Assembly (NCBI GenBank): GCA_024137785.1
Contig: JAHRHZ010000098.1
Coordinates: forward strand, 38,359,231-38,423,230
Source: Ginglymostoma cirratum
Taxonomy: Eukaryota
Reading direction: 5' to 3'
DNA length: 64,000 bases
Numbering within the stretch: the stretch's first letter is position 1; the number at the start of each line of letters is the position of its first letter. This document shows positions 3,001-6,000 of the stretch, piece after piece. The position numbers are program-made.

Positions 3001-6000
3001 AAATACACATTCCCAGACTCTGAGCTGACATCCCTGGACCCAACAATGCTTGTGTCAATAGGAACACCAGGGAAATAAGATACATCCCAAGAAGTTAAAT
3101 CCTAAATTGTCTTGATCATTCGCTAATACCTAAATATCAGTGCTGTCAAAAAAAACCAGTGCATCAATTACCTCTTATTTGCATATAACATATCTTTGAG
3201 AAAGCAGCACAGTTATCAAATCCCTTTTGCTCCCAAAGCTAGGGTTTAAGTCTAGCTGAAACTATAGGACTGAAGAAACTTGCATTTAACGTAGTGCCTT
3301 TCACATTCTCAGGTTTTTCACAACGAGTGAATGGGTAAAGGTAGGCTGATATAGTGGTTGTTACTGGAGTAATGATCCAGAGACAGGAATTCAAATCCCA
3401 GCTGGCAGTAGAGAACTGAAATTTAGTTAATTAAATAAATCTACAATAAAGGCTGGTATCAAAATGGCAGCCTTGAAATTACTACATTGTTGCAAGAACA
3501 CCTCTTATTCAATAATGTTTCTTTTACAAGGAAATCTGCCAACCTTACCTCGTCTGACCCAAATGTGACATCAAACCCATACCAATGCAGTTGACTCATA
3601 ACTACCTTGGAAAACTATTCAATTGTATCAAAATACTGTGTTGCTTGAGCTCGACTTCATGAATGTCCACATCATAAATAGATCTGTCCATGACAGTCTT
3701 GGTAGCAGTGACAACTGCTCAATCTTCTGCAAATTATAAGGCCACACACCAAGAGCCGGAGAATGGGATTCAATTGCATGGTGATTGTCAGCTAATGGGG
3801 ACATGATGGGCTGAATGGCATCTTTTAGTGCTATAAATTTCTATGACACCACTCTGTATTCCGTGGCACTATTATTGCGCTAAATGGGACAGATTCAAAT
3901 CAGTTCTATCAGTCTAAAAGTCAGCATTGGCATTGTGGACCATGAGCAACAGCAAATTATACACCAACATATTCTACAATGTCAGAGCCTGGCATACCTT
4001 TACTCAACCATTATCATCAAGTCAGGGGGATCACCCTGGTTCACCGAGTCAAGATGTGCCAGAAACAGCACCTCAAAATAATCCAGCAAACTGAGTAAAG
4101 TTCCAACATGTAATATGTATGCTAGTCAGTAGTTTGCCACCAATAGTTAAGTATTCCAAAGTCAGTAGATCTGATCAAAGCTCTACAGGCCAACCACATT
4201 GAGTCATGAATGGTGGTAGAAAATTGAAAAGCCTCCGTGGCAGTCTCCACGATCATTTCCATCCTCAATCTTAGGGGAAGTCAGCATAAGTGCAAAAGGC
4301 AAGAGTGAAGCATTTGCAATCATCTTCAGCTAACTGCAATGAGTGGATGAGCCCAGTTTGTTGAGGGCTCTTTCCTGAGTTTCTGCAACATACAGAAGCT
4401 AGTCTTCAGTCAATCTGATTCGTTCTGTGTGATGTGAAGAAATAGCCAAAGGAGCTAGATGCAGCAAAAGCAATGGGCTTAGCAGTGTACCAAAACTGAA
4501 GGTGTGCTCTTGAACTAGTGTTCCCCTAACCAAGATTTTCCAGTAAAGCAGCTATGACACCTGCCTGACAATGTGGAAAGCGGCCCAGGCATGTTCTTCC
4601 CAAAAATTTAGGACAAGCCCAATTGGTCAATAGGGTGCTATTAATTTCCTCTCAATTATCAACAATGATGGAGGGGGTTATCAACAATCAACCATTTCAG
4701 TGATGTTATTACGCATCTGTGGGGCAGGTGGGACTTGAACCAGACCTTCCAGCTCAGAGGTAGGGACACTACCACGGTTCCACGAGTTCATTCAGATGTT
4801 GAACTGACAGCACCCAACTTAGGATCCAAATCTGTAACCCCAGGGTTAACAATTTCATGCTTTACCAATTGAACAAGCCAGTCTTGGGCAGTTCCTCAAA
4901 TTAAATATTTTAATCAACCTGTTTAGACCTGTGTCTGAACTCATACTCACACCTCATTCATACCTCTGCAGCAGCTAGGACTTCAAACCAGCTATGCAGG
5001 CCCAGGAGAAGGGACACCACCACTATACCACCAGAGACCCAGTCACTCAGGATAGATAATTTCTAATCAACCTGCACACAGATGTTACTGTACACTTCTG
5101 AAGCAGGTAGAACTTGAACCAAGGTCTCCTGGTTCAGTAGTAGGGTCATTACCACTGCACCACAAGTGACCTCATTCAATATCATATACTTCAACCAATT
5201 CACCACTCATTCTTCTAAGCTCCACAGGAAACAAGCCCAGCCTGTCCAACCTGCTCAGATGCATTATGACACACCTCTGGAGCCTCCTGGCCCAGATGTC
5301 GGGACACTATTGCTGCACCATAACAGCCTGTTGTTGCTCAGAATAGATTTTTATTCAATCAACAACACCTTTTTCAGAGGTGTTATAACACAGCTCTGGA
5401 GCAGGCAGGACAAACTAAGGTCTTCTGGCCCAGAGACAGGGGCACCACCATTGTGCTACAACAACTTGTGTTTACTCAGGATATTGTCCTCGGCTCAACA
5501 TTTTCAGCCGCTTTATTAGTGACCATTTATCCATAACAAGGTTAAAAGGGACAATATCCACTGATGACAGCAGTGTTCAGAAACAACTCAAAGGTGTTAA
5601 ATAAAACACAAAACCAGTTTTAATATCAATTTCAAGCAATTGCACAATCCTGATTAATTTAGACGTTTACTGTACAATGTTGTTTTGGCATGAAACTATA
5701 TAGCACTTCAAAAGAAATAAGAATGAATGGACATTTAGAAAATCATTATAGCTGCCTTTCTTCTGCAGTTTGGATACACTGCTTAAGCCAACTTTCTGCC
5801 GGAAGGAAATGTCGTAATTTCTGGCCAGTGACTGTAATCAGCTGTTGCAATAAAGTTTACAGGTTTTAAATGTTGCTATCAAAGTTGCAAAACATCTTAA
5901 GTCAACTTCATAAGGATTCAACACTGGCACAAAGAACCTTCGGTACATTCTGGAGGTAGGAAGACAGGAGTATTATGCAACAAAGAAGTGAATTTTTAAA

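What the first reader, a model, noticed from the sequence alone, without database searches (positions are those of the whole stretch)
4686..4883. Second, older tRNA-spacer-SINE composite (tRNA-Lys + family A SINE)
Seen: on the minus strand a decayed full-length tRNA-Lys(CTT)-like sequence (4883-4811) is followed after ~24 nt by a co-oriented family A SINE (4786-4686). The pair replaces a missing stretch of the host LINE RT. The spacing is almost the same as the tRNA-Thr-HE1 case, but with a different tRNA and a different SINE. Inference: either shark SINEs preferentially integrate ~25 nt downstream of tRNA genes and are re-mobilised by read-through, or RT switches from SINE RNA to pre-tRNA 3' trailers. 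Two examples in 64 kb suggest a recurring process.
Basis: partly seen in the sequence, partly recalled or inferred. Interest (0 to 1): 0.7.

Follow-up and report, generated by a model that had tools for sequence, protein, structure and literature searches.

The report
Old SINE chain with tRNA-Lys relic
The tRNA-Lys-like relic and the SINE beside it are two neighbouring links in a longer, decayed head-to-tail chain of small retro-elements inside an old shark-type LINE, an ordinary kind of repeat clutter that hints at reverse-transcriptase template jumping but cannot prove it from one locus.

Summary
The family A SINE copy at 4686-4790(-) is real. The upstream 79 nt (4811-4889) get no tRNA score from Rfam or ARAGORN. 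By eye they match the two ends of tRNA-Lys-CTT printed in two papers at 36 of 51 positions, and 13 of 15 mismatches are transitions. The gap is 21 nt.

The pair belongs to a 780-bp co-oriented chain: five family A units, the Lys-like unit and an 85-nt internal scrap of CR1 ORF2. The chain lies antisense at the point where RT homology of an older LINE ('R') stops.

Only 2 other family A copies occur in the window. Neither has a tRNA-like neighbour, and the Lys-like unit has no second copy.

My best reading (confidence 0.35) is that a reverse transcriptase jumped from the 5' end of one small RNA to the next. Rivals not excluded: repeated insertion at one site, DNA-level amplification, and a read-through composite.

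The open collections hold no shark genome, so the genome-wide test could not be run. Interest is modest.

The parts
4811..4889 (-). tRNA-Lys(CTT)-like relic, 79 nt. The anticodon position now reads GTT. No CCA follows it.
   Evidence: By eye against printed tRNA-Lys-CTT pieces: 24/32 and 12/19 identical, and 13/15 mismatches are transitions (sequence). No Rfam or ARAGORN support. No other copy in the window.
4790..4810 (-). 21-nt spacer between the Lys-like unit and family A unit u1.
   Evidence: Sequence. Not similar to the junction motif S beyond chance (69% of random window 20-mers score at least as well). Unrelated to the Thr spacer.
4686..4790 (-). Family A SINE unit u1. The head is complete. 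The tail is cut at GGTTGATT and joined to host sequence.
   Evidence: nhmmer model positions 4-124, E 2e-32 (seed member). blastn to the copy at 53860-53933, E 5e-10. B box with 1 mismatch at 4741-4731. Host RT codons MEGVIN start at 4685 on the + strand.
4889..5039 (-). Family A unit u2, with a 21-nt internal insertion. Its 3' end carries junction motif S4 and abuts the Lys-like unit.
   Evidence: nhmmer 3-134, E 4.3e-30 (seed member). S4 resembles S0/S1/S3 (2.9% of random 20-mers score as well).
5040..5171 (-). Family A unit u3, followed by junction motif S3 and then directly by u2.
   Evidence: nhmmer 3-134, E 2.6e-36 (seed member). A box with 1 mismatch, B box with 2 mismatches.
5166..5255 (-). 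Internal fragment of a CR1-like ORF2 C-terminus ('RLDRLGLFPVELRRMSGELVEVYDIE'), co-oriented with the SINE units. It shares AGGTTG with the cut tail of u4.
   Evidence: Nucleotide alignment to the window's own near-intact CR1 (27776-27843): z 6.9, 0 of 200 shuffles as good. Profile of CR1 homologues: i-E 0.0011. tblastn piece.
5247..5328 (-). Family A unit u4. It has a 21-nt internal deletion and its tail is cut at CAGGTTG.
   Evidence: nhmmer model positions 4-106, E 1.2e-6 (not in the seed).
5331..5465 (-). Family A unit u5 with junction motif S1. It is preceded by S0 at 5466-5485.
   Evidence: nhmmer 5-134, E 1.6e-31 (seed member). The 59 nt upstream (5467-5525) resemble the tail of u5 (z 3.6, 9 of 1000 shuffles), but nhmmer does not call them a unit.
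3682..4691 (+). Host: copy 1 of an old LINE ('R'), with its coding strand opposite to the chain. RT homology ends at the chain.
   Evidence: Colinear blastn matches to copy 2 at 40529-41710 (68-82% identity). ORF 4569-4700(+) against RT homologue P0121: z 3.9, 4 of 500 shuffles, with an exact 'MEGVIN'. Copy 2 is an RT on the minus strand.
53842..53972 (+). Dispersed family A copy inside another CR1-type RT. No tRNA-like neighbour.
   Evidence: nhmmer E 4.9e-34 (seed member). Flanks read.
24727..25381 (+). Dispersed family A copy split by a roughly 530-bp repeat (halves at 24727-24767 and 25298-25381). No tRNA-like neighbour.
   Evidence: nhmmer E 2.6e-6 and 7e-16 (not in the seed). Sequence.
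40797..41236 (+). Together they form one indel relative to R copy 1, antisense to R copy 2.
   Evidence: Rfam tRNA 39.8 bits against a cut-off of 29, with a broken D stem. Empty-site comparison. Other V-SINE copies.

Best explanation
The Lys-like unit and family A copy u1 are two adjacent links of one old chain of about 780 bp.

On the minus strand the order is: u5, u4, an 85-nt internal piece of CR1 ORF2, u3, u2, the tRNA-Lys-like unit with a 21-nt trailer, and u1. The chain lies antisense inside an older LINE RT.

I propose that most or all of the chain was made at the RNA level. A LINE reverse transcriptase copied one small RNA to its 5' end. It then jumped to the 3' region of the next RNA, and the string of cDNAs was fixed in the genome. 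The templates would have been family A transcripts, once a CR1 RNA entered by GGTTG microhomology, and once a tRNA-Lys(CTT) primary transcript or gene-derived RNA with its trailer.

Shown:
- the pieces, their order and their orientation;
- the complete 5' ends;
- the two tails cut at the same motif;
- the lack of local relatedness among the units.

Inferred:
- that the joins were made by template jumping;
- that the 21-nt spacer is a tRNA trailer;
- that it happened in one or a few events.

On this reading the roughly 21-24-nt spacing is just trailer length. It is not an integration rule.
For: 1. Five family A units lie in 780 bp, against 2 in the other 63 kb. All are on one strand and head to tail.
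2. u4, u3, u2 and u1 all begin at model position 3-4. Each is preceded within 0-2 nt by the end of the previous piece, or by 21 nt after the Lys-like unit.
3. An isolated internal CR1 ORF2 fragment lacks the LINE 3' end, so ordinary target-primed insertion cannot place it. It sits in the same orientation between u4 and u3 and overlaps the cut tail of u4 by AGGTTG.
4. The tails of u4 and u1 are cut within 3 nt of each other at GGTTG(ATT), just 3' of a predicted hairpin.
5. Array units are no closer to each other (58-70% identity) than to dispersed copies (63-76%). 0 alignment columns separate the five array units from the two dispersed copies. They are therefore not a recent local duplication.
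6. The Lys-like unit lacks CCA and carries extra 3' sequence, as a primary transcript would.
7. The mechanism has precedent. Chimeric retrocopies with one or two template switches are described in the abstract of PMC2104539. Switching from SINE RNA to a tRNA by a CR1 RT is proposed for passerine SINEs in passages of bioRxiv 10.1101/081950.
Against: 1. Six consecutive jumps exceed the bi- and tripartite chimeras described (abstract read).
2. A 13-17-nt motif S (TATCCTGAGT-like) recurs before u5 and after u5, u3 and u2. It is not in the 3' flanks of the 2 dispersed copies (31% and 98% of random 20-mers score as well). An array-specific spacer is what target-site duplications or DNA-level amplification of [SINE + flank] would give. 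Under my reading it must be the shared 3' flank of one master gene, yet it does not end in a T run.
3. No target-site duplication bounding the whole chain was found.
4. The 3'-most unit u1 lacks a normal 3' end.
5. '0-2 nt junctions' depends on counting S as part of the unit. My profile seeds were cut at those junctions, so that count is partly circular. Only one non-seed copy (25298-25381) supports the long tail.
6. The tRNA identity of the Lys-like unit rests on a by-eye comparison.
7. This is one locus at roughly 20% decay per unit.
Confidence: 0.35

Rival explanations
1. DNA-level amplification. One family A copy flanked by its target duplication S was multiplied by unequal exchange or slippage between the S copies, giving S-u-S-u-S. 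The Lys-like retrocopy and the CR1 scrap arrived later, and deletions at GGTTG trimmed u4 and u1.
For: The S motif is array-specific. It is present before u5 and after u5, u3 and u2 (post-hoc motif count of 3 in the array against about 0.15 expected). It is absent from the flanks of the 2 dispersed copies. No T run ends the units. The best local alignment of 5468-5497(+) falls at the colinear place in LINE R copy 2 (22 of 26 aligned bases), which would make S0 host sequence. That alignment is not significant (z 0.9).
Against: Units are no more alike within the array than to dispersed copies, and 0 columns unite them. Tandem Repeats Finder sees no array. The model does not explain why the Lys-like unit and the CR1 piece sit exactly at unit boundaries in the same orientation, nor the isolated internal CR1 fragment.
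Confidence: 0.25
2. Stepwise hot spot. Independent retropositions (family A five times, a tRNA-Lys retropseudogene once) hit the same self-renewing target, each duplicating S.
For: S-like spacers between units. Co-orientation would follow from a strand-specific target.
Against: The motif YTGARNRAC occurs 25 times in the window (24.4 expected from shuffles). 22 of these carry no insertion. With only 7 family A copies in 64 kb, five or six hits on one site need an extreme hot spot. The Lys-u1 spacer is not S-like. The CR1 internal scrap remains unexplained.
Confidence: 0.15
3. A family A SINE once landed about 21 nt downstream of a real tRNA-Lys gene elsewhere. Pol III read-through RNA (tRNA + trailer + SINE) was then retroposed here as a unit.
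For: Co-orientation. No CCA. A spacer length like the Thr case (21 against 23 nt). Thr + spacer + V-SINE is one indel at a paralogous empty site.
Against: No second copy of the Lys unit or of the junction in the window. 0 of 6 other family A copies and 0 of 2 other V-SINE copies with 5' ends have a tRNA-like unit upstream. The pair is embedded in a longer chain, which this model does not explain. u1 lacks the normal 3' tail that a re-mobilised composite would need for recognition.
Confidence: 0.1
4. The 79 nt are not tRNA-derived at all. They are unrelated decayed sequence between two SINE units.
For: No Rfam or ARAGORN score. No cloverleaf stability. A and B boxes at chance level.
Against: 36 of 51 positions match the printed ends of tRNA-Lys-CTT, and 13 of 15 mismatches are transitions (by eye). 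About one third would be expected between unrelated sequences. The acceptor halves pair at 6 of 7 positions. Family A heads also fail the covariance model.
Confidence: 0.08

Closest known systems
Chimeric retrocopies made by LINE RT template switching (bi- and tripartite chimeras; Gogvadze et al. 2007, PMC2104539, abstract read)
   Same: Copies of different transcripts are fused directly in one orientation. A small RNA sits 5' of a SINE or LINE part. Switches occur at preferred sites in the template.
   Different: The known cases have two or three parts and flanking direct repeats. Here there would be seven parts, no bounding repeat was found, and the 3'-most part lacks a normal tail.
SINE head exchange by a CR1 RT (TguSINE1 to PittSINE in passerines; Suh et al., bioRxiv 10.1101/081950, passages read)
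   Same: [quoted passage not shown]
   Different: There the tRNA replaces the old head and founds a new family. Here the tRNA-like unit is added in front of a complete SINE head, and no family is seen (1 copy in the window).
V-SINE HE1 with partner LINE HER1 in sharks and rays (table in the review PMC3747384)
   Same: The SINE after tRNA-Thr (from 40892) has a tRNA-like head and a 3' end that by eye resembles the CR1-type 3' ends in this window.
   Different: The label rests on my recollection of the V-SINE core. No HE1 reference sequence was available to test it. Family A is a different, short (about 117-134 nt) element with an unrelated tail.
Dimeric or composite SINEs and tRNA-gene-targeted retroelements (Alu-type dimers; Dictyostelium TRE and yeast Ty3). 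Recalled; not checked in any call.
   Same: Two pol III-type units in tandem, or insertion at fixed distances from tRNA genes.
   Different: Those are families with many copies sharing one junction, or with a measured distance peak. Neither could be shown here.

Membership tests
tRNA (Rfam RF00005), for 4811-4889 | Cloverleaf covariance-model score at or above the 29-bit gathering cut-off | tested here: not met
   No tRNA hit even at E<=10 in 1.1-kb and 106-nt searches. ARAGORN finds nothing at default settings. Control: two family A heads also fail.
tRNA (Rfam RF00005), for 4811-4889 | Internal pol III A and B boxes | tested here: not met
   The best matches have 3 mismatches each. That level occurs 14 and 5 times per kb per strand in the window. 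The consensus motifs were recalled.
tRNA-Lys(CTT) descent, for 4811-4889 | Sequence similarity to tRNA-Lys-CTT above chance | tested here: inconclusive
   By eye against printed pieces: 24/32 and 12/19 identical, with 13/15 mismatches being transitions. No scored test was possible, because the reference could not be entered and the middle 22 nt were not in print there.
Family A SINE, for 4686-4790 | Profile match over head and tail, and repeated dispersed copies | tested here: met
   7 copies in the window, of which 2 are dispersed. blastn to the dispersed copy gave E 5e-10.
Family A as a tRNA-derived SINE | tRNA-like head with A and B boxes; target-site duplications; a LINE-related 3' tail | tested here: inconclusive
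   A box with 1 mismatch in 3 units, and B box with 1-2 mismatches in 3 units. There is no Rfam tRNA hit. Candidate duplications were seen only by eye and are not above chance. The tail is unlike the CR1 3' ends in the window. The tail hairpin has 8 predicted pairs and 0 compensatory changes.
Template-switch chimeric retrocopy | All parts in one orientation and directly fused | tested here: met
   All 7 parts are on the minus strand. Gaps are 0-2 nt at 4 junctions if S counts as the unit's end, 6 nt of overlap at one junction, and 21 nt at one.
Template-switch chimeric retrocopy | One target-site duplication around the whole chimera, and a normal 3' end on the last part | tested here: not met
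   No bounding repeat was found. The tail of u1 is cut at GGTTGATT.
Composite (read-through) SINE family | The same junction at several loci with different flanks | tested here: not met
   0 further copies of the Lys-like unit or of the junction in 64 kb. A genome-wide test is not possible with these tools.
SINE-derived tandem repeat | Units closer to each other than to dispersed copies; a regular period | tested here: not met
   Within-array identity is 58-70%, against 63-76% to dispersed copies, and 0 supporting columns. TRF finds nothing. Start-to-start spacings are 138, 158, 132 and 248.

The most novel reading that the evidence does not exclude
One retroposition event strung together seven RNA copies by six successive end-to-end template jumps: five family A SINE transcripts, a CR1 message fragment and a tRNA-Lys primary transcript with its trailer. 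That is far beyond the two- and three-part chimeras described so far. It would point to an unusually jump-prone LINE reverse transcriptase in elasmobranchs. It would also give a direct route by which tRNA-plus-SINE composites, and so new dimeric SINEs, are born.
Probability: 0.2. Interest if true: 0.6.

Novelty: new member of a known kind. Interest (0 to 1): 0.3.

Why it matters
If such chains are common in shark genomes, they would be a natural record of RT template jumping by CR1-type or related LINEs. They would also show how SINEs gain new tRNA heads or become dimers. The 'composite' is part of a larger cluster, the spacing has no demonstrated meaning, and the idea needs a whole-genome count before it deserves weight.

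Tried and rejected
1. Host LINE read as CR1 on the minus strand. My by-eye reading of CR1 ORF2 codons at 5600-5480 and 4528-4300 was not borne out. A CR1 C-terminal profile found only 5255-5166. The nucleotide match at 4528-4385 (z 3.1) lies where LINE R runs on the other strand.

2. The CR1 fragment at 373-51 as a continuation of the 5255-5172 piece. Rejected, because that copy extends further upstream on its own.

3. Extra decayed units 'u6' (5575-5467) and 'u0' (4600-4440). nhmmer does not call them at E<=100. Only the tail-like 5467-5525 has weak support.

4. The Lys-u1 spacer as another copy of junction motif S, or as a cut family A tail. It looks that way by eye but is not above chance. 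The same holds for S-like target duplications around the dispersed copies.

5. Host RT continuing beyond the chain. tblastn, a profile search and Smith-Waterman with shuffles were all negative or non-significant.

6. A chimera of the chain with the host LINE. Rejected, because the host is on the opposite strand.

7. Relaxed ARAGORN settings gave only noise: 27 calls at the 80% threshold and 198 at 70%.

8. A 28-nt inverted repeat (4474-4501 / 5763-5790) as transposon ends or a LINE inversion. Unresolved (blastn E 0.14).

9. I did not scan genome contigs, because it holds only bacteria and archaea.
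Full report
WHAT IS AT THE COORDINATES

The family A copy is real.
- blastn links it to a dispersed copy at 53860-53933 (77% over 74 nt, E 5e-10).
- A profile built from five copies finds 7 copies in the 64-kb window.
- Five lie at 4671-5465, all on the minus strand. One lies at 53842-53972(+). One is split by a roughly 530-bp repeat (24727-24767 and 25298-25381, +).
Its head starts at about 4790, so the gap to the upstream unit is 21 nt.

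IS THE UPSTREAM UNIT A tRNA?

Structure-based tools say no.
- Rfam's tRNA model gives no hit at E<=10, either in 4300-5400 or in a 106-nt search.
- ARAGORN finds only the tRNA-Thr at 40797-40868. Its relaxed settings give noise.
- The segment folds no better than shuffles (z +0.72).
- Its best A-box and B-box matches have 3 mismatches each, which is chance level.

As a control, two well-kept family A heads with near-consensus A and B boxes also get no tRNA hit. The model is therefore blind to decayed heads.

No eukaryotic tRNA reference could be entered into a tool. I therefore compared the window by eye with the 32-nt 5' half of tRNA-Lys-CTT printed in PMC12635633 (passage) and the 3' fragment printed in PMC7555719 (table passage).
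- 24 of 32 positions are identical, with insertions of 2 and 4 nt, when the unit starts at 4889 (GCCC).
- 12 of 19 positions are identical at 4829-4811.
- 13 of the 15 mismatches are transitions. About a third would be expected between unrelated sequences.
- The acceptor halves still pair at 6 of 7 positions.
- The anticodon position reads GTT.
- The next three bases are ctg, not CCA.

I accept 'decayed tRNA-Lys(CTT)-like' as likely. The basis is indirect.

The repeat finder shows five co-oriented copies of the SINE head with start-to-start spacings of 248, 132, 158 and 138 nt. With the profile the minus-strand order is:
- u5 (5465-5331);
- u4 (5328-5247; internal 21-nt deletion, tail ends at CAGGTTG);
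- an internal fragment of CR1 ORF2 (5255-5166);
- u3 (5171-5040);
- u2 (5039-4889);
- the Lys-like unit (4889-4811);
- the 21-nt spacer;
- u1 (4790-4686; tail ends at GGTTGATT).

The CR1 fragment is solid. It aligns to 27776-27843 of the window's own near-intact CR1 (25716-28250) with z 6.9. A profile of named CR1 homologues gives i-E 0.0011. It overlaps the cut tail of u4 by AGGTTG. The best named relatives of that CR1 are Chiloscyllium punctatum proteins at 57-74% identity.

THE HOST

The sequence 3' of the chain (minus 4588 to 3682) is colinear with the sequence that flanks the tRNA-Thr/V-SINE pair (40529-41710, +) at 68-82% identity. Both 'composites' therefore lie in two copies of one old LINE, here called R.

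Copy 2 codes on the minus strand.
- An 80-aa ORF (40188-40430) has 4 homologues at E<=0.001 among 82 candidates, and all 4 carry Pfam RVT_1.
- One of them matches 40502-39903 by tblastn at E 1.5e-66.
- Weak endonuclease and RT Pfam hits lie in the right order.

Copy 1 therefore codes on the + strand. Its ORF 4569-4700 aligns to homologue P0121 (z 3.9; 4 of 500 shuffles) with an exact MEGVIN at 4668-4685. So both the chain and the Thr pair are antisense to their host.

Beyond the chain I could not demonstrate that R continues.
- tblastn gave no hit at E<=1 on the + strand in 4700-14000.
- A profile search and Smith-Waterman tests were negative.
- The best local alignment of 5468-5497 does fall at the colinear spot of copy 2, but it is not significant (z 0.9).

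HOW THE UNITS RELATE

- Pairwise identity inside the array is 58-70%. To the dispersed copies it is 63-76%.
- No alignment column separates the five array units from the two dispersed copies.
- Tandem Repeats Finder sees nothing.

The units are therefore old and are not a recent local duplication.

A 13-17-nt motif S (TATCCTGAGT-like) lies before u5 and after u5, u3 and u2. A post-hoc pattern count gives 3 in the array against about 0.15 expected, and 25 in the window against 24.4 expected. S is not seen in the 3' flanks of the two dispersed copies, and the Lys-u1 spacer is not S-like.

S could be either of two things:
- the shared 3' flank of one master gene, carried in its transcripts;
- a host-derived target duplication copied with each unit.

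This is the main unresolved point.

MECHANISM

Several features are what an RT produces when it runs to the 5' end of one RNA and jumps to the next:
- co-orientation;
- complete 5' ends (model position 3-5 in all five units);
- heterologous pieces sitting exactly at unit boundaries;
- an isolated LINE-internal scrap joined by microhomology;
- two tails cut at the same motif just 3' of a predicted hairpin (8 pairs, no compensatory changes).

Chimeric retrocopies of two or three parts are documented (abstract of PMC2104539). A SINE-RNA-to-tRNA switch by a CR1 RT has been proposed (passages of bioRxiv 10.1101/081950).

I take this as the best single account (0.35). On it, the 21 nt after the Lys-like unit is a transcript trailer.

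Against it stand:
- the number of jumps required;
- the array-specific S without a T run;
- the missing bounding duplication;
- the abnormal 3' end of u1.

THE SECOND EXAMPLE

The tRNA-Thr unit scores 39.8 bits against a cut-off of 29, with a broken D stem. R copy 1 serves as an empty site. Thr + 23-nt spacer + V-SINE (40797-41236) form one indel, and the spacer has no host counterpart. That favours linked arrival.

The spacer contains ACTTTGG, against ACTTCGG in the 3' flank. This 6-of-7 match could be the V-SINE's own target duplication, which would mean two events. My rough estimate of its chance is about 0.02; this is an inference, not a tool result.

Of the other V-SINE copies that keep their 5' end (29207-28790 and 38616-38807), 0 of 2 has a tRNA-like unit upstream. 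The 'HE1' label is consistent with the table in the review PMC3747384, which lists V-SINE HE1 and LINE HER1 in sharks and rays. I recalled the V-SINE core and did not test it.

LITERATURE SEEN

- Search listings.
- Passages of PMC5499810: 0 mentions of tRNA-Lys, tandem, dimer or HE1.
- Passages of 10.1101/081950.
- Table passage of PMC3747384.
- Abstract and outline of PMC2104539.
- Passages of PMC12635633 and PMC7555719.
- Supplements were closed and not requested. None bears on a claim made here.
- I make no claim that such chains are unpublished. Only looked, and neither was aimed at that question.

VERDICT

This is a new instance of known kinds of repeat behaviour. Interest is 0.3. The decisive work is a genome-wide count in the source assembly, which no open collection here allowed.

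Noticed in passing
window 25716-28250 (+): A near-intact CR1-like LINE with a 567-aa ORF and a 150-aa ORF, then frameshifts and a stop near the C-terminus. Its 3' end carries GTTCT-type short repeats like the copy at 373-51(-). The best named relatives are Chiloscyllium punctatum proteins (57-74% identity).
   Followed up: partly
window 39800-42286 (-) and 3682-4691 (+): Two old copies of another LINE ('R'). Copy 2 keeps endonuclease and RT remnants in order. Both copies carry antisense insertions of pol III-type elements.
   Followed up: partly
window 24768-25297 (+): A roughly 530-bp repeat splits a family A copy. Related copies lie at 15135-14841, 52882-53182, 33755-33857 and 54673-54888 (71-81% identity). 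Its family was not identified.
   Followed up: no
window 53700-54200 (+): A family A copy sits inside a CR1-type RT between the 'KIRAHGI' and 'DWL' codons, co-oriented with that LINE, and appears to displace about 6-8 codons (by eye).
   Followed up: no
window 4474-4501 and 5763-5790: A 28-nt inverted repeat (79% complementary) brackets the chain at about 190-300 nt on either side. It covers LINE R codons 'GLSSVPKL' on one side and could mark an inverted LINE fragment. The blastn match is weak (E 0.14).
   Followed up: partly
window 49605-50081 (+): Open frames with a roughly 22-aa unit repeated in tandem ('...AHHTAKAAATASPTLLG...'), suggesting a minisatellite with a period of about 66 nt.
   Followed up: no
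protein search, (P0021): A protein labelled Proteus mirabilis 'reverse transcriptase domain-containing protein, partial' is 71% identical to this CR1 ORF piece. It is probably vertebrate contamination in a bacterial record.
   Followed up: no
family A tail, e.g. window 5106-5079 (-), 53912-53939 (+): A conserved inverted repeat (CAGAGGTGT ... ACATCTCTG) lies just after the tRNA-like head and just before the GGTTG motif where two units are cut. RNAalifold predicts 8 pairs with no compensatory change.
   Followed up: partly
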